This document shows, in pieces, positions 1,931 through 54,383 of a stretch of DNA of 64,000 nt; position 1 is the stretch's first letter; each line of letters opens with the position of its first letter. This stretch comes from Microcoleus sp. Its GTDB lineage: Bacteria; Cyanobacteriota; Cyanobacteriia; Cyanobacteriales; Microcoleaceae. Position numbers and translations under genes: made by a program. The stretch is from positions 1 to 64,000 of the forward strand of contig JAYFMW010000022.1 of assembly GCA_042408215.1 (NCBI GenBank), in the 5' to 3' direction. Below the pieces are notes generated by a model, which searched no databases, was not told the origin of the DNA, and saw only the letters and a program-made list of their open reading frames with translations.

Positions 1931-2210
1931 AAACCCTGTCAAGAAATCAAAGAAGCATCTCCTGATTTGACTAATATTTTTGATAATTGTCATGGAAATT
2001 CAGCCTTTTTTAGAAAAAGAATAATTGCCAAAAATATGGCATAATTCAGCACATGATATTGTAGAAAATCTTGAAAATTTTGTTGAGATCGTGAGCAAAA
2101 TAGGCATTCTTGAATGGCGCGAAAAAGAGCGACGCTATAAATGCGCGGATATCTATGTATATGGTTTTGAGATGGAGCGCAGAGGCACATTATGGAAATT
2201 TCTCAAATAA
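1931..2210 (+). pseudogene. C-terminal gene remnant with frameshift and stop, possibly from a P-loop ATPase
   Basis: KPCQEIKEASPDLTNIFD / EIQPFLEKE*LPKIW...KIGILEWREKERRYKCADIYVYGFEMERRG; family assignment is by recall only. Confidence 0.4.
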
Positions 2211-2392
2211 TGCAGGAGTCAAAAATAGTTGACATCGATCGCAGTTTGCAAGTAAAAAGCGATATATAGTCTGCCTGCGTAAGTCCTGCTAGAATGTCTT
2301 GCATAGCAGATTCCGACTCTTGGCATGAGTCGCGTTGCCTCCCTGGTTAGGAGTGCTTTCTGGAGGGGTGCTGAATTGTTAGGAGGACTGTT

Positions 2393-3391
2393 GTGTCAGA
2401 CCAGCAAGACCGAATTTTGCGTTTATTCATAGAGGAGGCTAAGGAGCACCTCGATACTCTAGAAAATGGTTTGGTGGATTTAAAGTCCACGATGAAAGAC
2501 CCCGAAAGCCTTCAAGAGATGTTTCGAGCAGCCCATTCCGTCAAGGGAGGGGCGGCGATGCTCGGCTTAGACAGTATTAAAACAACCGCTCACAGATTGG
2601 AAGATTGTTTTAAGATTCTCAAGGACGGGCCCGTGAAGCAGGTTGACCAAACAGCAGAATCCCTATTTTTAAAGGGAGTTGATACGCTTAAGGATTTGGT
2701 GGGGCGGATGGAAGGGCCTTTTGGCTTGAGGAGTGAAGAGGGAGAGAAACTCGTGCAGCAAATCATGCCGACGTTTGCTCAACTGGAAACTCACCTCAAT
2801 AACTTGGTTTCGGGCAAAGTTCCTGGGGTTTCTGCTAAGTCTGGTTCGTCTGGGGCTGCTCAAACAGTCACGGCGACAAATTTTGTAGCTTCAGTGATGG
2901 TATTACTGAAAGAAATGTTGCAGGTGTTCAAGCAGAAAGAGTCGGCTGCTACTCGCCAGCAGTTGTCGGATGTGTGCGTTCGCCTCTATAAGTTGGGAAC
3001 CGGTATCGAGACTTGGCAAAATTTAGTCAAAACTGCTAGAGTCGCGATCGCGAATCCCAAAAACTCTTATAAAGTGTTAGCTCCGCTGATTATCAAAGAA
3101 CTCAAGGACGCCGGAGATTTGGTGCAAGGGGGGAAAGTCAAGGCGATCGCTCCGAGTAAAAATTTACTGCTTTTGGCAACACCCCCACAAGCAGTGGCCA
3201 GCGTCCCAGCAACAGCCCCAGCAACAGCCCCAGCCACAACCCCAGCCACAACCCCAGCAGCAGCGTCGCAGCCAGTAGCACTTCCGGCAGAACCGAAGGC
3301 AGTAGTAAAGCTTTTGCTCAAAACCTTTAACAAAAAGCAACTCTCGGAAATAGCTAAGTTACTGATTCACGCGATTAAATCTTCCCCCTAG
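2393..3391 (+). CDS. Hpt (histidine phosphotransfer) domain protein resembling the CheA N-terminus, without kinase domains
   Basis: FIEEAKEHL...MFRAAHSVKGGAAMLG...AHRLED; Ala/Pro/Thr linker near the C-terminus. Confidence 0.85.
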   Translation: MSDQQDRILRLFIEEAKEHLDTLENGLVDLKSTMKDPESLQEMFRAAHSVKGGAAMLGLDSIKTTAHRLEDCFKILKDGPVKQVDQTAESLFLKGVDTLKDLVGRMEGPFGLRSEEGEKLVQQIMPTFAQLETHLNNLVSGKVPGVSAKSGSSGAAQTVTATNFVASVMVLLKEMLQVFKQKESAATRQQLSDVCVRLYKLGTGIETWQNLVKTARVAIANPKNSYKVLAPLIIKELKDAGDLVQGGKVKAIAPSKNLLLLATPPQAVASVPATAPATAPATTPATTPAAASQPVALPAEPKAVVKLLLKTFNKKQLSEIAKLLIHAIKSSP

Positions 3392-3504
3392 GACTTTGGA
3401 TGCTAGAAGGTAAAAGGATGTTAGGTTTAAATGGCATTTTTTTATGGCCACTTTCTCGGTTAGGACGTTCTTAATTGCAGAAATCATTGATTTTGTGGCA
3501 TTTC

Positions 3505-3540
3505 CCTTCTTCCTTCTTCCTTCTTCCTTCTTCCTTCCTT
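3505..3540. repeat. STRR heptamer tract (ttcttcc)
   Basis: Tandem 7-mers. Confidence 0.8.
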
Positions 3541-4062
3541 CTGCTATACCTTTGGCAACCCTGGGTTAGAATTAGTGAAATTAGGGGCGGCGTGCAACAT
3601 TGTACGAGAATTTAAAATCGAGCAGGCTTTAGAAGGCGGTAGCTTTGACACTCTGGGATCGCGAGCGAGACTGAGATTCTTGAGTCGCCCATATTTGGAC
3701 TCTCAAAGGCAACTGTCAAGGGTGTCGCTAGACGCTCAAAATAACTACCAGTATCAGAGGTATGGCAATTGCGCTTACTTTTGTGTTTAGATTGCTTTCC
3801 GAGTCCATTCTTCGACTTCGCGAGCGTACAAGTCACTCAGCCAGTTAGGTACGCTCCACAATTCACTTGTGCTTGTCTGGACAGGTTCGGCATTGCCGAG
3901 TAGCGATCCAACCCAGGAGTTTCACCTTATGAAATTGCTTCAGTGCGTAGATGGTTATTCATACTTGCGAATTCTATTGTACCAAATATTGACGGGGATT
4001 AAAATCCCCCGACTGGCTTCCCTCCCAGATCTTAAGAGACTGCGCATCCCGCATCCCGCACT

Positions 4063-4533
4063 ATGCCTGTGAAACCAATTCGTTCATTAGAAGATGCTTT
4101 AAATCGCTGTCAGGCGATGGGAATGCGCTTGAGCCGCCAGCGTCGATTTATTCTCGAACTCCTGTGGCAGGCGCAAGAACACCTCTCAGCGCGCGAAATT
4201 TACGATCGCCTGAACCAACAATCGCATTCGATCGGTCACACTTCTGTGTATCAAAATCTCGAAGCTCTTTCGAGAGAGGGGATTATTGAGTGCATAGAGC
4301 GATCGGAGGGACGCTTGTACGGCAATGTGAGTGACTCTCACTCTCACGTCAACTGTTTGGATACGGCTCAGATCCTCGACATTCATGTGGAATTGCCCAA
4401 AGACTTGATCGCACAAATCGAACAGCAAACAGGGGTTCGGATTGTAGATTACCGCATCGACTTCTACGGCTATCGATCGCCCGAGTCCGCCACAGAAGGC
4501 TCGATCGCCAGCGATCGGCCGCCTGCTGCGTGA
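4063..4533 (+). CDS. perR: Fur family regulator, cyanobacterial PerR/FurC type
   Basis: RLSRQRRFILELL, HLSAREIY, TSVYQNL, HSHVNC. Confidence 0.8.
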   Translation: MPVKPIRSLEDALNRCQAMGMRLSRQRRFILELLWQAQEHLSAREIYDRLNQQSHSIGHTSVYQNLEALSREGIIECIERSEGRLYGNVSDSHSHVNCLDTAQILDIHVELPKDLIAQIEQQTGVRIVDYRIDFYGYRSPESATEGSIASDRPPAA

Positions 4534-4704
4534 AGGGATCTGGAAACTTTGGCAGCAAAGCTCTACAGATATCAACAACGTTACTCATTTTGTAGAGGAT
4601 TTTTGGATTGAGAGCTGAAACTCAAAGCCGCCCTCCGGCCCGGGGCAGAAGTTAGCCAACTGCAAGACGAGGGTTTAAAGCTGTAACGTGATTCTTGGAC
4701 AAAG

Positions 4705-4890
4705 CTACCCATTGATGGCATTGTTGGGTAGCTCTCTAGCAAGTCTCTCGCTCACATCACTAAGACTGCTTGCGGTAAGCTGAACTCGTTTTTCCTCTAG
4801 CCACTTAGTAGCAGTCTCGGTCAGGCTGAGGTTGACTTTACGCTTAGGCTCGCTGTAAATCTTTTTTCTAGGCCTTTTGTTGTTCCGCAT
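4705..4890 (-). CDS. Small ribbon-helix-helix-like protein divergent from TnpB
   Basis: MRNNKRPRKKIYSEPKRKVNLSLTETATKWLEEK...SLSDVSERLAR: beta-strand followed by two helices. Confidence 0.6.
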   Translation of the reverse strand: MRNNKRPRKKIYSEPKRKVNLSLTETATKWLEEKRVQLTASSLSDVSERLARELPNNAING

Positions 4891-4936
4891 TAATTCCGCA
4901 TACAATAACAGTAAGGCAGAAATGAGGCAAAAGCAA

Positions 4937-6199
4937 ATGTTACTTAGTTTCAAAACGGAATTAAAACCTAACAACAAACAGGTGACAATATTTCGACAGC
5001 ATTGCGGAGTAGCAAGACACGCTTACAACTGGGCGAATTCAATCATCCTTGAAATATTAACAATCAGGGAGACGGATCAAAGCGTAAAGCTCCCTTCTGC
5101 CATTGATTTACACAAACGTTTAGTAGCGGAAGTCAAACCTCTGTATCCCTGGTATTATGAGTCTTCCAAGGCCAGCCCACAGCAGACTATAGTTGAATTG
5201 AGGACAGCTTGGGATAGATGCTTCAAAAAGGTATCTAAACAACCTAGATTCAAAAAAAAAGGTGTATCAGGTGACTCTTTTTATCTAGAGCAAGGAACCA
5301 AAGCAAAGCCAGGAATTAATAACGACGGCAAGCGCATCAAGTTACCTAAGATTGGTTGGGTTAGGCTGCACGAACCATTACCTATTACGGCGTTCCACAA
5401 CTGCGTAATCAGCCGAAAAGCTGACAGATGGTTTATTGCTTTTAAGTGCGAGATTGAGCAACCCGCAATTCTATCTAGCCGTCCTACCGTTGGTGTCGAT
5501 ATCGGTATCAAAGAATTAGCTGTTTGTTCTAATGGTCAAACTTTTGCTAATCCAAAGGCTTATCGTCGGATGAGCCGTAAAATGAAACATCTGCAACGAC
5601 GTGTCAGCAAACGAGTCAAAGGTTCTAATCACCGCAAAAAAGCAGTCTCAAAACTAGCCAAACTACACCTAAAAGTATCAAATATCCGAAAAGATGCTAT
5701 TCATAAGCTAACAACTTACCTCGCCAAAAACCACAGCGAGGTCAAGATTGAAGACTTACAAATTAAAGCATTTTTGAAGAACCACAAGCTAGCCGGTGCG
5801 ATCGCTGACTGTGGAATGTACGAATTCAAGCGTCAACTTGAATATAAAACCAAAAAGTTTAACTCAAAATTGACGCTCATAGATCGATTCTTTCCTAGCA
5901 GTCAAATCTGCTCAAATTGTTGTAATCATCGGCACAGAATGCCATTAAAACGTCGAGTTTTTGAATGCCCCAACTGTGGAAACATTCAAAATCGCGACCT
6001 AAACGCTGCGAAAAATATAGAACGTTGGTTTGAAGGAATATTTATTCCAGAACATTCAGAATTGGCGGTGAGTTCCACCGTGTCAGCCTGTGGAGTAGAC
6101 AAACCCGACAGCAGTCATGTTGTCGCTACTGTGAAACAGGAAGTTAACACCACAAGCACTCATGTCCAGATAAGTTTAGACTTGGGTAGCTATGGGTAA
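4937..6199 (+). CDS. tnpB: RNA-guided endonuclease TnpB (IS607 type)
   Basis: MLLSFKTELKPN start (4922 also possible); RuvC motifs VGVDIG / IEDL / RDLNAA intact; zinc finger CSNC..CPNC. Confidence 0.93.
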   Translation: MLLSFKTELKPNNKQVTIFRQHCGVARHAYNWANSIILEILTIRETDQSVKLPSAIDLHKRLVAEVKPLYPWYYESSKASPQQTIVELRTAWDRCFKKVSKQPRFKKKGVSGDSFYLEQGTKAKPGINNDGKRIKLPKIGWVRLHEPLPITAFHNCVISRKADRWFIAFKCEIEQPAILSSRPTVGVDIGIKELAVCSNGQTFANPKAYRRMSRKMKHLQRRVSKRVKGSNHRKKAVSKLAKLHLKVSNIRKDAIHKLTTYLAKNHSEVKIEDLQIKAFLKNHKLAGAIADCGMYEFKRQLEYKTKKFNSKLTLIDRFFPSSQICSNCCNHRHRMPLKRRVFECPNCGNIQNRDLNAAKNIERWFEGIFIPEHSELAVSSTVSACGVDKPDSSHVVATVKQEVNTTSTHVQISLDLGSYG

Positions 6200-6301
6200 G
6201 TTTTTCAGAACGGAAAAATATTGAGTGAACAAATAAAAATTTATCAAAAATTCAGCCTTCGGCTTCAGACTGCTTGAGGCTTTAGGATTGAACCGAATGA
6301 C

Positions 6302-6487
6302 CAAAAAACTGGGATACAAGCCCCGTCATAAGCTTGACGGCTTTTTGCTAGAATACAGATAGTCGCCGAGCGGGCATTGGGAGACTCGCTTCAGGACGTG
6401 GAGCGACGGTAAGACTACCGCTTGGGGAGCGCGTTGCTATGAAGCGTCAAGGAATCCTCGGACTTGATAGACGGGGAGGTATGTCAA
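6302..6487 (+). mobile_element. Protein-free IS200/IS605-derived element: left end + promoter + omegaRNA-like scaffold + right end
   Basis: Left end aligns gaplessly over 26 nt with that of the 36874-38356 element; 6362-6487 aligns with its TnpB 3'/omegaRNA region and ends in TCAA; extended -10 TGcTAGAAT at 6346-6354. Confidence 0.8.
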
Positions 6488-6732
6488 GAGTACCTTCTAC
6501 TGTTCTTGGTTGCACATTGCCTCCTAGATCTGTTAATAACTATTCGATAACCGTGCTTAAATAAGGATGCGGAACAGACTGCCAAAGTTTGTCACAATCC
6601 GCAATGCCAAAAGCATCAGCTTTGAACCAAAGCCCAAAATCTGAACTTTTTTATGAGCTTTGGTTCTCTGGCAACCTGCCTACCTACCAACTGGGTTAGG
6701 CGACCTAGCGCATTACAGGACAGGCTGAAGTA

Positions 6733-9012
6733 ATGGCGAGACGACAATCAGACCAATTCCACACACCACCGCAATACAACCCATCCCCTAAGCCGACACC
6801 ACAGTTAAGTGCAGAGGCTCCGACAGGGGATTCTAGTTCAGAAGCAACGATGCCACCTCTAGAGAGTAAAAGAACTTTTTGGCAGTGGCAACTGATCTGG
6901 CTGAGTCTCCTGGTGGGATTTGGCATCACCGGGGCCGCTGCATTCCTGTGGTTGTTGACGATGCCACCGCCTCCAAATTGCCAACAACTGTCGCCGCTGG
7001 CGGCGGACGGGGAGCGACTTTACTGCGCTCAACAAGCAGCTAAGTCGGGCAAGCTAGAACAGCTAGAAGCTTCCATCGCACTGGTGCAGGCTTGGCCGAA
7101 AGAACACCCGCTTTACTCGCAAGGCCAACAATTGGTGGGGGACTGGTCGAAAGCCATTTTGGGATTTGCCAAGGCAAAAATTGAGATGGGCGACTTGAAA
7201 GGCGCTCTGGGGATTGTGGCGAAAATTCCGAAAACCAGTCCGTCTTACCCAGAGGTTCAGGAGGCTGTTACGGCTTGGGAGAAAAATTGGCAGGAGGGCC
7301 AAAATATTTACGATAAGGCTCAGGCAGCTTTGAAAACAGAGGATTTAAGGAAGGCATGGGATTATGCTCAAGCTCTGTTTAAGCTGGAAAATGTGTTTTG
7401 GAGTCAGAAACGCTACAACGAGTTAGTCCAGCAGATCGCTTTGGAAAGAAACGGCTGGCAGCGCTTGCAAGAGGCGAGAAATATGGCGCAGGAGGGAACT
7501 CCGCAAAAGTTCGCTGAGGCGATTATATTGGCTCGCAAAATAGATCCGCAGCTCTTGGCGCGCGCCAAAGCGGAGCAGGAAATCGCAGGCTGGAGCCGGA
7601 TTTTGCTGGCAATGGCTACTAAGCAGTTGGCGGCGAAAAACCTCCCTGGGGCGATCGATGCTGCTTCTGTCGTACCACAGGATTCGCCTCTGTTTGCGGA
7701 AGCTCAAGATTTGATGCAATTGGGTAGAGCTCAGGCGGTGACATGGAACCAGTCGATTACAACACCCCTGGGAGAACACATTTTTAGCTTGCTCGAAGGC
7801 CAGGGGGCTGCTAGTCAAATTGCTCCAGGCCGTCCTCTATACCAGCAGGCTCAAACTCAAATAGAAAATTTGCAGGTGCAGTTTCAAGATTTGCTAAGGC
7901 TGCAAGTGGCGAGCACGATCGCCAGTTTGGGTCAGTCTGGGACGTTTGAGGTGGCGATCGAGCAAGCCCAAAGGATCGGCCCTAAGCAGCCGCGACGGGT
8001 GCACGCTCAAACTTTGATCGCTGGTTGGCGCAAGGAAATTCAGCGGATAGAAGACCAAGCTTTTCTGATGCTGGCGAAGCAGTTGGCAGAACCGGGAACG
8101 GTTGAGGGACTCAAAGGTGGCATTGCTCAGGCACTTCTGATCGCTCAAAATCGGCCCCGCAGAATAGAGGCGCAAACTCTGCTCGCGAGCTGGACGAAAC
8201 GCATAGAAGTGATTCAAGATCAGCCTTTTTTGGACGAAGCCCTGGCCCTGGCGAAGCAAGGAAAACTTAGCGCAGCGATCGAGACCGCATCGGAAATTAA
8301 GAGCGGTAGGATTCTGTACGCCAAAGCTCAGGAGAATGTCGATCAGTGGGTGGGCGAACTGCAAGTGGCTCAAGATCGACCGATTCTCGATCGAGCTGCT
8401 GAATTGGCGTCTCAAGGCCGACTAGGAGCAGCAATCAATATGGCTTCCCAAATCAGCTACGGTAGGGCGCTGCACTCTGAGGCGGCGGGTGCGATCGGGC
8501 GCTGGAGTGCGGAACTGAGAGCCAACACAGCACCCCCACCGGCGGCGGAGCGCGATCGCTCTTCGGAGCAGGCGCGAGAGGAGCAGTACGCCCCGGCTCC
8601 GGCGCGAGAGGAGGAATACGCCCCGGAGCCTCGGCGAGAGGAGCAGTACGCGCCTCCTCCCGAACCGGAGCCGGCTGCTGAGCCTTACTATCCGCCAGCC
8701 CAACAAGAGGCCCCGGCTCCTGAACCAGAGCCTTATTATCCGCCAGCCCGAGAACCAGAGCCTTATTATCCGCCAGCTCGAGAACCGGAGCCTTATTATC
8801 CGCCAGCTCGAGAACCGGAGCCTTATTATCCGCCAGCTCGAGAACCGGAGCCTTATTATCCGCCAGCTCGAGAACCGGAGCCTTATTATCCGCCAGCTCG
8901 AGAACCGGAGCCGGCTCCCGAACCCGCTCAGGCTCCGGAGCCCGAACCCGCCCCGCCTCCTCCGATTCCTGAGTCGGGTGGGCCTCCTGATGCTAATTTG
9001 ATCCCGGAGTAA
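6733..9012 (+). CDS. Conserved cyanobacterial membrane-anchored helical-repeat protein with Pro/Tyr/Glu-rich tail
   Basis: One N-terminal TM segment, TPR-like repeats, C-terminal PEPYYPPARE repeats. Confidence 0.8.
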   Translation: MARRQSDQFHTPPQYNPSPKPTPQLSAEAPTGDSSSEATMPPLESKRTFWQWQLIWLSLLVGFGITGAAAFLWLLTMPPPPNCQQLSPLAADGERLYCAQQAAKSGKLEQLEASIALVQAWPKEHPLYSQGQQLVGDWSKAILGFAKAKIEMGDLKGALGIVAKIPKTSPSYPEVQEAVTAWEKNWQEGQNIYDKAQAALKTEDLRKAWDYAQALFKLENVFWSQKRYNELVQQIALERNGWQRLQEARNMAQEGTPQKFAEAIILARKIDPQLLARAKAEQEIAGWSRILLAMATKQLAAKNLPGAIDAASVVPQDSPLFAEAQDLMQLGRAQAVTWNQSITTPLGEHIFSLLEGQGAASQIAPGRPLYQQAQTQIENLQVQFQDLLRLQVASTIASLGQSGTFEVAIEQAQRIGPKQPRRVHAQTLIAGWRKEIQRIEDQAFLMLAKQLAEPGTVEGLKGGIAQALLIAQNRPRRIEAQTLLASWTKRIEVIQDQPFLDEALALAKQGKLSAAIETASEIKSGRILYAKAQENVDQWVGELQVAQDRPILDRAAELASQGRLGAAINMASQISYGRALHSEAAGAIGRWSAELRANTAPPPAAERDRSSEQAREEQYAPAPAREEEYAPEPRREEQYAPPPEPEPAAEPYYPPAQQEAPAPEPEPYYPPAREPEPYYPPAREPEPYYPPAREPEPYYPPAREPEPYYPPAREPEPYYPPAREPEPAPEPAQAPEPEPAPPPPIPESGGPPDANLIPE
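8722..8912 (+). repeat. Intragenic 30-bp tandem repeat, 6 full copies plus a partial
   Basis: gaacc(a/g)gagccttattatccgccagc(t/c)cga. Confidence 0.95.
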
Positions 9013-36592: not shown

Positions 36593-36877
36593 ATGCCGAA
36601 AGCAATTTGGAATGGTGCCGTTCTGGCCGAAAGCGACAAGTGTGAAGTCGTAGATAACAACTATTACTTCCCCCCAGATGCCATCAAACGCGAGTATTTT
36701 AAGGACAGCAGCACCCACACTACTTGCGGTTGGAAAGGTGTCGCTAGTTACTACAGCGTCGAAGTCGGTGGACAAGTCAATAAAGATGCCGCTTGGTATT
36801 ATCCTACTCCGAAAGATGCGGCCAAAAATATTGGAGGCTACATTGCTTTTTGGAAAGGAGTTAAAGTGGAAGTTTGA
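36593..36877 (+). CDS. DUF427 family protein
   Basis: KAIWNGAVLAES, NYYFPP, TCGWKGVASYY, AAWYYP. Confidence 0.9.
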   Translation: MPKAIWNGAVLAESDKCEVVDNNYYFPPDAIKREYFKDSSTHTTCGWKGVASYYSVEVGGQVNKDAAWYYPTPKDAAKNIGGYIAFWKGVKVEV

Positions 36878-36911
36878 CATCCACCCCGCCGTGAACGGAC
36901 GGGGATTCCAT

Positions 36912-38138
36912 CTATTTAAGCAGATCAAAAATTGACAACTGCTTAAATTCTGGTTGGGTTGACGCTTCAATGGCTACTGCTACCTTGGCGGTAGTCTTAC
37001 GTCTACCTCCACGTCCGTTTAGAGTCTCCGAAAGCCCTCCGGCGACCTTAATATTAATTGCAGCGTTAACATCTCTATCGTGATAACTGCCACAATTAAG
37101 ACAAATCCACTCTCTAACATTTAACTCTTTTTTGCCACCGCGAAAACCACAGCAAGAGCAAGTCCCAGAAGTGGGAGTCCATCTATCAATCACTCGAAAA
37201 TCACGACCGTACATTACCGACTTAGCCTCTAACATAGTTCTAAAACTACGCCAGCCTAAGTCGCTAATAGCACGGGACAACCTGCGATTTTTCATCATAC
37301 CTGAAACATTCAAATCTTCCAAGACTATTGTTTGGTTTTCACGAATAATCTTAGTTGACAGTTTGTGAATAAAATCATTTCGAGTATCAGAAATTTTAGC
37401 GTGAAGTTTAGCTAATTTTTTTCTAGCCACTTCCCTTCTTTTACTCCCTTTTTGTTTTCTTGACAAATTGCGCTGTAATTTTCTTAAACGCTTTAACTGT
37501 TTCTTTAAAGGTTTAGGTGATTTAACTTTTTCACCGTTACTTAAAGTAGCAAAATCAGTTATTCCTAAATCAATTCCTACACTTGAACCGTTCTTAGGTA
37601 ATTGTTGAGGATTAAACTCAACGACAAAGCTAACAAAGTATCTATCAGCACTATCTTTGATGAGGGTAACACTGGAAGGAATAGCTGGTAATTGTCTACT
37701 CCAGATTACTTGGATATCACCTATTTTAGCCAGGTAAATATAATCAGAATCAGGAGCGAGTTTAAAACCATTACCAGTGAACTTAGCAGACTGTTTAGAC
37801 TTACGTTTTTTAAATCTAGGCGGTTTAACTTTCTTGCCTTTTCTTTGTCCTTTACAAGATTTGAAAAAGTTTGAATAAGCCTGCTCTAAATCTCTCAAAG
37901 ACTGTTGCAATGGAATAGAGGAAACTTCTGTTAACCATTGTTTTCCCTCCGTTTTTTTGATTTCTGTAAGTCTTTTAGAAAGTTCAATGCTAGAAGGTTT
38001 TTTATTCCCGTTTTGCTCCTCCTGTTTGCAATATGCTAAGGCATCGTTAAAGACTACCCGACAACAACCAAACAATTGAGACAAAAGCCTCTTTTGTTGG
38101 GTTGTTGGGTAGATTCGATAGCGATACCTTAATTTCAT
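36912..38138 (-). CDS. tnpB: RNA-guided endonuclease TnpB (IS605 type)
   Basis: YRYRIYPT..FGCCRVVFN; RuvC VGIDLG / LEDL / RDVNAA intact; zinc finger CSCC..CLNC. Confidence 0.95.
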   Translation of the reverse strand: MKLRYRYRIYPTTQQKRLLSQLFGCCRVVFNDALAYCKQEEQNGNKKPSSIELSKRLTEIKKTEGKQWLTEVSSIPLQQSLRDLEQAYSNFFKSCKGQRKGKKVKPPRFKKRKSKQSAKFTGNGFKLAPDSDYIYLAKIGDIQVIWSRQLPAIPSSVTLIKDSADRYFVSFVVEFNPQQLPKNGSSVGIDLGITDFATLSNGEKVKSPKPLKKQLKRLRKLQRNLSRKQKGSKRREVARKKLAKLHAKISDTRNDFIHKLSTKIIRENQTIVLEDLNVSGMMKNRRLSRAISDLGWRSFRTMLEAKSVMYGRDFRVIDRWTPTSGTCSCCGFRGGKKELNVREWICLNCGSYHDRDVNAAINIKVAGGLSETLNGRGGRRKTTAKVAVAIEASTQPEFKQLSIFDLLK

Positions 38139-38190
38139 TGACTTATTTTGCCCTGGGAATACACTCTAATTATAGAGTTGCTTTTAGAGT

Positions 38191-38343
38191 ATGTCAAGAG
38201 CTAAAAAAATTCAATTCAATGTCAATGAAAGCGAATACCAACAACTTAAAGAATATGCAGAATTTCTTAATATTTCAATGGCTGAAGTCTTGAGGGATTA
38301 TATTAAGTCTTTGGAAATCCGTCCTAGAAGGACGGGGTTTTAA
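38191..38343 (+). CDS. 50-aa CopG/ribbon-helix-helix protein (not in the ORF track)
   Basis: MSRAKKIQFNVNESEYQQLKEYAEFLNISMAEVLRDYIKSLEIRPRRTGF. Confidence 0.75.
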   Translation: MSRAKKIQFNVNESEYQQLKEYAEFLNISMAEVLRDYIKSLEIRPRRTGF

Positions 38344-38435
38344 ACCCAAATCTCTGATCGGGGAGTTTTGAGTTAATTTCCAGATTCCCGACTTCTTGAA
38401 GAAGTCGGGAATCTGGAAGTTGAATCCTTCTCAAA

Positions 38436-43992: not shown

Positions 43993-44027
43993 CCATACCT
44001 CGCAGATGAAAAACATGATTGTCAACA

Positions 44028-44150
44028 AATCGGCGGGCATTCTGACTCAGAGATGCAATAATCTCATTACAGTTGCGGGACAGCGCCGGATTCGCACCGA
44101 ACTTTCCCCCTTGCGTCTGATGTGTGTTTGTCATCAGAGCCGATCGATAT
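44028..44150 (-). ncRNA. Cobalamin riboswitch
   Basis: Minus strand gggaaagttcggtgcgaatccggcgctgtcccgcaactgt...gagtcagaatgcccgcc. Confidence 0.93.
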
Positions 44151-44216
44151 AGGGGGATAGTAGCACTATTTGGGATATTTGACAAAAATAGCTCTTAAAA
44201 ATTCAGCAGGCGGGCT

Positions 44217-54092: not shown

Positions 54093-54126
54093 GTACCTCG
54101 CCTCTGGAGACTATTTAAACCAACAC

Positions 54127-54247
54127 ATCGGCGGGCATCCTGACTCAGAAAGCAACAAAACTTTCATTACAGTTGCGGGACAGCGTTGGACTTGCACCAA
54201 ACTTTCCCCATTTCCTCTAAGGGCTGCTCCCCATTAGAACCGAATTG
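54127..54247 (-). ncRNA. Cobalamin riboswitch upstream of cbiM
   Basis: Minus strand gggaaagtttggtgcaagtccaacgctgtcccgcaactgt..gagtcaggatgcccgcc. Confidence 0.93.
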
Positions 54248-54383
54248 TTAGATTTAGTATAGTCGATCGCGCAAATCTCAGCAGATTTTTTACAAAAATT
54301 ATTTCAGATTAACCAAGTCAAAATTACCTATCATCTTCTCTTCTCTTTTCTTCCTTCGCGTCCTTCGCGTCTTCGCGGTTCGT

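What the first reader, a model, noticed from the sequence alone, without database searches (positions are those of the whole stretch)
6302..6507. Protein-free omegaRNA cassette matching a TnpB element 30 kb away: candidate trans-acting guide element
Seen: this 186-bp element has a left end (caaaaaactgggatacaagccccgtc) aligning without gaps to the left end of the 36874-38356 element (cagagatttgggtttaaaaccccgtc). An extended -10 (TGcTAGAAT) follows, and about 7 nt later gtcgccg..ggagactc..ggacgtggag..gtaagactaccgc..tgaagcgtcaa..ggaatcc..gggg..atgTCAA, collinear with that TnpB's 3' end and right end but lacking one internal ~48-nt hairpin. Diverged positions still pair (AGCGACG/CGTTGCT). No protein is encoded, and the promoter abuts the scaffold start. 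Established: TnpB omegaRNAs derive from this region and take their guide from the 3' flank (here gagtaccttctactgttctt). Inference: a minimal element that borrows TnpA and TnpB in trans, or a domesticated guide-expression unit. The upstream flanks (TGAC here, CGAT for the full element) would be the TAMs.
Basis: partly seen in the sequence, partly recalled or inferred. Interest (0 to 1): 0.85.

Follow-up and report, generated by a model that had tools for sequence, protein, structure and literature searches.

The report
Gene-less TnpB guide-RNA mini-transposon
This 186-base stretch is one of 13 copies of a gene-less jumping element in a cyanobacterium that carries its own promoter motif and a folded guide RNA for a DNA-cutting enzyme encoded elsewhere in the genome; it is real and well preserved, but elements of this kind are already described.

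Summary
The element (6302-6487) is real: 13 full-length copies in this cyanobacterial genome, all behind TGAC, each with a different 3' flank; the site is empty, without duplication, in relative G005. It is a PATE, a protein-less IS200/IS605 derivative: IS608-type ends, an extended -10 motif and a 126-nt TnpB omegaRNA scaffold. In relatives across cyanobacteria the inner helices covary (18 of 34 pairs) and a -10 hexamer lies 6-9 nt before the scaffold in 52 of 53 minimal elements. No sign of domestication. Transcription, loading and cleavage are not shown. omegaRNA-bearing PATEs used in trans are in print (Meers 2023; PMC10691335), and this scan noted such elements before on other DNA, including this genome. 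New member of a known kind.

The parts
6298..6301 (+). Target tetranucleotide TGAC (TnpA cleavage site, predicted TnpB TAM); outside the element
   Evidence: Precedes 13 of 13 copies, TTGAC in 10 of 13; stays behind at clean empty sites
6302..6345 (+). Left end: DNA guide CAAG at 6317-6320 (+16 to +19), subterminal hairpin 6323-6340, T run
   Evidence: CAAG goes with TGAC in 21 of 26 left ends of this genome, AAAG with TTAC 39 of 49, AAAA with TTAT 22 of 37; 24 of 26 letters identical to the TnpA+TnpB elements on C20 and C3; hairpin plus T run scored as terminator-like
6346..6354 (+). Extended -10 promoter motif TGcTAGAAT, 7 nt before the scaffold
   Evidence: Present in 13 of 13 copies; TANNNT 6-9 nt before the scaffold in 52 of 53 minimal relatives against 6.6% background; transcription not shown
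6362..6487 (+). TnpB omegaRNA scaffold, 126 nt: stem 1 (6362-6385) with pseudoknot strand GGCAT 6373-6377 pairing ATGTC 6481-6485; stems 6395-6398/6445-6448, 6402-6408/6432-6438, 6415-6429; right-end hairpin
   Evidence: Covariation in 56 sequences; pseudoknot strands change together across G000 elements; same topology as ISDra2 omegaRNA (PMC10097598, passages)
6452..6487 (+). Right end: DNA guide GAAT 6452-6455, hairpin 6455-6477, terminal TCAA
   Evidence: Boundary fixed by 13 differing flanks and the empty site; GAAT/TCAA as in IS608 is recalled
6488..6507 (+). 3' flank = predicted guide, specific to this copy; target is this copy's own empty site
   Evidence: No TGAC-adjacent site in G000 within 3 mismatches of 16 (58,882 sites)
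4674..6213 (+). Separate TnpB-only element (ORF 4877-6199), independent insertion 88 bp upstream; not part of the cassette
   Evidence: Pfam TnpB domains; absent together with the cassette in G005, joint at GG; IS607-like by that joint (recalled rule)
36874..38356 (-).

Best explanation
A selfish, non-autonomous IS200/IS605 mini-element (PATE) that encodes only a guide RNA. Shown: it is mobile, inserts precisely 3' of TGAC without duplication, and its scaffold structure and -10 position are conserved in protein-free relatives across cyanobacteria. Inferred: the Y1 TnpA of the TGAC-type autonomous elements (G000 C20:496072-497746; also C3) peels it out and pastes it; RNA polymerase starts 1-2 nt before 6362, so the RNA begins at the scaffold without 5' processing and runs into the flank; a TGAC-reading TnpB made elsewhere (C20, C3 or C5 type) loads it and cuts the empty joint left by excision, so that recombination with a sister chromosome restores the copy. 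Each new insertion makes its own guide.
For: 13 copies, 13 flanks, TGAC 13 of 13. Empty site at this locus in G005 and one metagenome contig; 5 of 15 right ends from G005/G008/G009 map to clean empty TGAC or TTTAT sites in G000, 4 are shared insertions, 6 unresolved. Left-end guide/flank code. C20 carries an intact Y1 TnpA (132 aa, PF01797 E 4e-38) and TnpB with D-E-D motifs. Covariation inside helices that TnpA does not need: 93.5% of cells paired, 18 of 34 pairs with two-sided change, 0 of 500 shuffles, slid controls 36-43%; RNAalifold finds the same inner stems, 17 of 31 pairs. -10 position 52 of 53. The only 2 of 80 loci where the same scaffold start abuts tnpB encode proteins 69-73% identical to the C20/C3/C5/C1/C30 group and 54-59% to the window's clade. 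C20-like TnpBs have TGAC flanks in 15 of 23 readable left ends. Mechanism follows Meers 2023 (10.1101/2023.03.14.532601, passages) and Karvelis 2021 (PMC8612924, passages).
Against: No transcript start, loading or cleavage shown; the laid RNA runs are contigs only. No Rfam model hits. Generic promoter scan negative; z -0.43 for the single fold. The structure counted was drawn by hand from these sequences, the first 24 positions were fixed by the search pattern, and relatives are not independent. No exact TnpB-coding parent found: the closest C20 relatives have a GG/CC stem 1 where the cassette has CC/GG, and by global alignment the scaffold is about equally far from both clades (scores 102-120). 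This copy has a private G at 6425 that breaks one pair.
Confidence: 0.75

Rival explanations
1. A plain passive MITE-like PATE: moved by TnpA, with the scaffold only left over from the parent gene and no working RNA.
For: No direct expression data; single-sequence fold not above shuffles; Haloquadratum PATEs arise by core deletion (PMC3119063, passages); 6 of 8 resolved empty sites have intact TAM and seed, which simple recent insertion explains.
Against: Compensatory changes in internal helices among protein-free elements of many genera; -10 kept at fixed distance while the spacer letters vary; 78 of 80 loci with this scaffold start are not next to tnpB.
Confidence: 0.1
2. The RNA is made and loaded, but by the 36.9-kb type TnpB, or by several clades; with a TTAT-reading enzyme it could not cut its own TGAC joint and would act as a decoy that draws TnpB away from other elements.
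For: Best local scaffold match in G000 is 36874-38356 (80%); 76-78% of query positions match that clade; the same scaffold occurs behind both TGAC- and TTAT-type left ends in relatives.
Against: 0 of 11 readable left ends of that clade are TGAC-type; that clade's scaffolds are 165-174 nt, the cassette 126; TnpBs with the identical scaffold start are closer to the C20 group; a decoy gives the element no retention benefit (inference).
Confidence: 0.1
3. A domesticated guide-expression unit that aims TnpB at a host or foreign target.
For: This insertion is bridged on one or both sides in runs of 4 studies; 5 G000 copies are shared with G005 or G008.
Against: Guides differ in all copies; none has a TGAC-adjacent match within 2 mismatches of 16 in G000; the site is empty in G005; intact mobile ends.
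Confidence: 0.05

Closest known systems
PATE-like, omegaRNA-only IS605 elements of Geobacillus stearothermophilus (Meers et al., 10.1101/2023.03.14.532601; passages read)
   Same: No ORF, IS605 ends with TAM/guide covariation, omegaRNA kept; the paper states that PATEs often encode omegaRNAs to be acted on in trans by TnpB of other elements, and shows TnpA excising ends from omegaRNA-only families.
   Different: Cyanobacterial, TGAC target; the passages seen do not describe an element-borne extended -10 at the scaffold start or a phylum-wide family.
Standalone omegaRNAs of OMEGA systems (as summarised in Altae-Tran et al. 2023, PMC10691335; passages)
   Same: Mobilised, effector-less omegaRNAs in the same genome as effector loci, shown to work in trans; biological role called unknown.
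   Different: The primary demonstration (their ref. 1, not read) concerned IscB as I recall; here the scaffold is TnpB-type at the right end.
PATEs of Haloquadratum walsbyi (Dyall-Smith et al. 2011, PMC3119063; passages)
   Same: Short, transposase-free, near-terminal palindromes, no terminal inverted repeats, no target duplication, multicopy at over 90% identity.
   Different: No RNA function or promoter described in the passages seen.
ISDra2 TnpB-omegaRNA (PMC8612924, PMC10097598; passages)
   Same: Guide from the 3' flank, TAM equal to the TnpA target, pseudoknot between the stem-1 loop and positions near -5 to -3, scaffold of similar size (116 vs 126 nt).
   Different: There the RNA overlaps the tnpB 3' end in cis; TAM TTGAT.

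Membership tests
PATE (IS200/IS605-derived) | Too short to encode a transposase; no ORF | tested here: met
   186 bp; no ORF of 90 aa or more over it
PATE (IS200/IS605-derived) | Near-terminal palindromes related to IS605 ends, no terminal inverted repeats | tested here: met
   Hairpins 6323-6340 and 6455-6477; left end 24 of 26 identical to TnpA+TnpB elements
PATE (IS200/IS605-derived) | Insertion 3' of a short fixed target, no target duplication | tested here: met
   TGAC 13 of 13; precise empty sites
PATE (IS200/IS605-derived) | Mobilised in trans by Y1 TnpA | not testable with these tools
   Intact TnpA with matching end present; insertion polymorphism; activity not assayed
TnpB omegaRNA | Scaffold homologous to tnpB 3' end/right end, guide from 3' flank | tested here: met
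TnpB omegaRNA | Conserved stems and pseudoknot with the 3' end | tested here: met
   Stems covary; pseudoknot GGCAT/ATGTC changes to GGAAT or GAAAT/ATTTC in 5 G000 elements; five-pair pseudoknot found in 34 of 41 scaffold matches
TnpB omegaRNA | Expressed as RNA | tested here: inconclusive
   Only contigs of RNA runs could be laid; -10 motif conserved
TnpB omegaRNA | Bound by TnpB and directs TAM-dependent cleavage | not testable with these tools
   Candidates with matching flank and residues identified
Cognate of the 36912-38138 TnpB | Same target/TAM type as that TnpB's clade | tested here: not met
   0 of 11 readable left ends TGAC-type; S and T at the positions that are Q and mostly R in TGAC-flanked proteins
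Rfam families (HEARO, IS605-orfB-I, sot RNAs and others) | Covariance-model match | tested here: not met
   No hit over the element at gathering score or at E up to 5 (L011)

The most novel reading that the evidence does not exclude
These cassettes are not fresh debris of local tnpB genes but an old, cyanobacteria-wide lineage of self-transcribed guide parasites: their extended -10 was born from the last RuvC codons (N-A-A-R/K-N-I) by a frameshifting deletion that only a gene-less element can afford, which puts the transcript start at the scaffold and frees the RNA from TnpB processing; they swap left ends (TGAC or TTAT) and scaffold modules by recombination to match whichever TnpB the host carries, sometimes gain an undescribed 5' RNA domain, and cut empty alleles hard enough that TAM-plus-seed escape alleles, like the one at this very site in G005, are selected.
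Probability: 0.25. Interest if true: 0.6.

Novelty: new member of a known kind. Interest (0 to 1): 0.32.

Why it matters
The biological role of stand-alone omegaRNAs is called unknown in print (PMC10691335). This family offers a clean test case: a 186-bp natural guide cassette with its own promoter motif, filled and empty alleles in close relatives, and named candidate TnpA and TnpB partners. It also marks the natural minimal scaffold (about 120-126 nt) for this TnpB group, and the side result that two TnpB positions track the flank letters gives a testable TAM code for compact nucleases. The concept is not new.

Tried and rejected
RNA evidence: four runs laid, all contigs. Depth over 6404-6491 against 6316-6359 was 2078-4413 vs 976 (X14, RNA), 484-886 vs 207 (X16, RNA), 249-443 vs 474 (X4) and 17-64 vs 112 (X1); contig depth sums all copies and organisms and cannot rank parts, so I do not count it. 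No empty-site joint appeared in those runs. Rfam: nothing over the element or ten related loci. Sigma-70 scan: 1 site found, 0.6 expected, not the proposed one. Single-sequence folding: not significant and not the covarying structure. Promoter-from-codons across the family: mean alignment score 4.93 against 4.70 +/- 0.21 for spacer shuffles, 48 of 300 as high, so not supported family-wide; it rests on examples (window copy vs C3, 13 identities over 15 columns with one gap; C23/C6 elements vs C1). Self-targets: none close. Empty-site searches for eight other copies: five unresolved because of repeats or incomplete genomes. Escape-allele idea: 2 of 8 resolved empty sites have TAM or seed changes, post hoc and too few. 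The upstream TnpB (4877-6199) was rejected as part of the cassette: separate insertion. Group I intron or ribozyme reading of the 5' extra domain: no Rfam hit, only 6 consensus pairs on a poor alignment. My first pseudoknot scan had a faulty pattern (redone in 59). Literature searches listed no paper on this cyanobacterial family or on an element-borne promoter; listings only, subscription papers and bioRxiv supplements were not visible, and Meers' supplementary tables could bear on this.

Full report
Observation. BLAST of 6302-6487 against the own genome (7.36 Mb, 30 contigs) gave 13 full-length copies at 83-100% identity. All 13 follow TGAC (10 TTGAC), end in TGTCAA and have different 3' flanks. 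By a crude ORF check the window copy is intergenic, 103 bp after a TnpB gene and 243 bp before the next long ORF. The genome holds 138 TnpB-like loci and 20 Y1 transposase matches. Named relatives of the element lie in cyanobacteria (two loci are on one contig binned under another name).

Mobility. In G005 the orthologous locus lacks both the cassette and the upstream TnpB element: window 4401-4673, 6212-6300 and 6488-7000 are contiguous, with one base for 6301. One metagenome contig has the same allele. There is no duplication. That empty allele differs from the predicted joint at three of ten positions (TGAG for TGAC, one change just upstream, one at guide position 5), against 95.5-98% identity of the flanks. 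Of 15 distinct right ends from G005, G008 and G009, five map to clean empty sites in G000, four are shared insertions and six are unresolved (one shared case by flank identity). Of eight other G000 copies searched in G005/G008, one is cleanly empty in both, one is empty with a changed seed, one is filled in G008, five are unresolved.

Ends and transposase. Over 145 left ends in G000 the four letters at +16 to +19 predict the flank: CAAG/TGAC 21 of 26, AAAG/TTAC 39 of 49, AAAA/TTAT 22 of 37, GAAA/TCAT 9 of 21, GAAG/TCAC 3 of 7, counted at a fixed offset. This is the guide/target covariation described for ISGst and IS608 (Meers 2023, passages). The cassette's left end matches the TnpA+TnpB elements at C20:496072 and C3:453996 in 24 of 26 letters and the window's 36.9-kb element in 18 of 26. 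C20 encodes a 132-aa Y1 TnpA and a 395-aa TnpB; the C3 TnpA may be shortened at its start.

RNA scaffold. An exact 22-letter scaffold-start pattern hit at least 118 stretches in the species-representative genomes; 80 were listed. Only 2 of 80 abut a tnpB ORF. For covariation I used the window copy and 55 of the 78 others (64 of 80 had a right end at the expected distance, 57 were distinct, the two coding ones were dropped). On a hand-drawn structure of 34 pairs, 93.5% of cells pair, 18 pairs change on both sides, none of 500 shuffles reaches this, and slid partners pair at 36-43%. Eleven of the 18 lie in three inner helices, outside the end hairpin that TnpA needs. RNAalifold predicts the same inner stems. 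Stem 1 and the pseudoknot cannot vary in that set, because the pattern fixed them; across 41 scaffold matches in G000 the loop strand and the 3' end change together (GGCAT/ATGTC, GGAAT or GAAAT/ATTTC), 34 of 41 keep five pairs, and CC/GG swaps with GG/CC in stem 1. The ISDra2 structure has the same pseudoknot between the stem-1 loop and -5 to -3 (PMC10097598, passages). The window copy carries one private pair-breaking letter at 6425. Against: single-sequence z is -0.43 and Rfam has no model.

Promoter. Among the 80 loci, TANNNT ends 6-9 nt before the scaffold in 52 of 53 minimal elements (41 with TG in front), 1 of 13 elements with an extra 5' domain, 0 of 2 coding elements and 3 of 12 unclassed, against 294 of 4424 background positions. 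In elements with the extra domain the motif sits in front of that domain instead (by eye). Classes were set by the left-end hairpin and the domain, not by the -10. The sequences are related, so this is conservation, not independent origin. TnpB normally trims the 5' end of its RNA from the mRNA (PMC10278001, abstract and passages); a start at the scaffold would make that unnecessary (inference). The motif resembles the codons for N-A-A-R-N-I in C3-type tnpB with one base removed, but the family-wide test was not significant. Expression itself is not shown.

Which TnpB. Locally the scaffold is closest to the 36.9-kb element (80%); globally the two clades score alike. The two TnpBs that carry the identical scaffold start are 69-73% identical to the C20/C3/C5/C1/C30 group and 54-59% to the window's clade. 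In the genus, 0 of 11 readable left ends among 26 loci of the window's clade are CAAG-type, whereas 15 of 23 readable among 30 loci of the C20 group have TGAC (one of the 23 is a false read). In 40 aligned proteins, position 50 (C20 numbering) is Q or C in 31 of 31 with C-ending flanks and S in 9 of 9 with T-ending flanks, cutting across both clades; position 118 is R in 15 of 17 TGAC proteins and in none of the other 23. Five labels there came from the left-end guide because a small repeat hides the flank, several from a flank read one base off, and one (L288) was assumed from its likeness to C3. R118 aligns to ISDra2 T123; position 50 falls in the Y52-S57 helix, on S56 by my ungapped reading; both residues contact the TAM (PMC10097598). 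The window's TnpB has S and T, so it should read a T-ending TAM, not TGAC. Since TAM equals the TnpA target in ISDra2 (PMC8612924), the TGAC-flanked C20, C3 and C5 proteins are the likely nucleases. Cross-loading is not excluded: the same scaffold also rides on TTAT-type ends in a minority of relatives.

Mosaicism. Loop and hairpin alleles of the 13 copies show all four combinations in 6 of 10 module pairs, which fits recombination between copies; assembly chimeras of near-identical repeats are not excluded.

Domestication. None of the 13 guides has a TGAC-adjacent site within 2 mismatches of 16 among 58,882 sites; the window guide's best has 4. Nothing points to a host target.

Known or new. 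Meers et al. state that PATEs often encode omegaRNAs to be used in trans by TnpB of other elements; Altae-Tran et al. [quoted passage not shown] A 2026 review and the IStron preprint added nothing specific in the passages seen. Earlier notes of this scan report the same kind of element in other genomes and in this one; none matched this sequence. I found no paper on this family or its promoter in seven searches, seen as listings.

Verdict. Real, well preserved, probably functional, and of a described kind: new member of a known kind, interest 0.32. The useful additions are the corrected partner, the empty allele, the breadth of the family and the residue-flank correlation.

Noticed in passing
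L015, L016, L017, L019, L036, L044, L054, L105, L119; G000 C14:9651-9939, C30:248491-248779, C5:595256-595595: Longer relatives (290-340 bp) carry an extra 110-170 nt domain between the promoter and the same scaffold, with conserved GTTGAAA and GGCAATGG..CCAACC motifs; no Rfam hit, weak consensus fold on a poor alignment. An earlier scan note reports a similar domain.
   Followed up: partly
G000 genome-wide: 57 left-end/right-end pairs under 620 bp without TnpB overlap (a few false), in many families, several with a -10 right behind the left-end hairpin; others hold a HEARO-like RNA on the opposite strand (resemblance recalled).
   Followed up: partly
TnpB proteins of G000 and genus: Two positions track the flank: Q/S with the last TAM letter (C/T), R/T with TGAC versus other flanks; they align to TAM-contact residues of ISDra2 TnpB.
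   Followed up: partly
window 4674-6213: TnpB-only element inserted at GG, absent in G005; copies at 92-94% protein identity on C16, C20 and C6.
   Followed up: partly
window 38357-38360 and G000 left ends: CGAT occurs as a minority flank of AAAA-type left ends (4 of 37), possibly insertion at HIP1-like CGATCG sites.
   Followed up: no
G000 C17:666634-666837, C17:184942-185144; left ends such as C20:15476: Small palindromic repeats have inserted into the scaffold stem of two copies (19 nt longer) and over many left ends, recalling the repeats that target PATEs in Haloquadratum.
   Followed up: no
window 37028-37035 (- strand, 36.9-kb element): The 36.9-kb element's own pseudoknot strand reads GGCTT, a mismatch to its 3' end, as in its C6 sister.
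   Followed up: no
window 38447 onwards (seen to 38700): Tandem repeat of about 51 bp just beyond the left end of the 36.9-kb element.
   Followed up: no
window 44015-44159 and 54113-54259 (-): Two cobalamin riboswitches.
   Followed up: no
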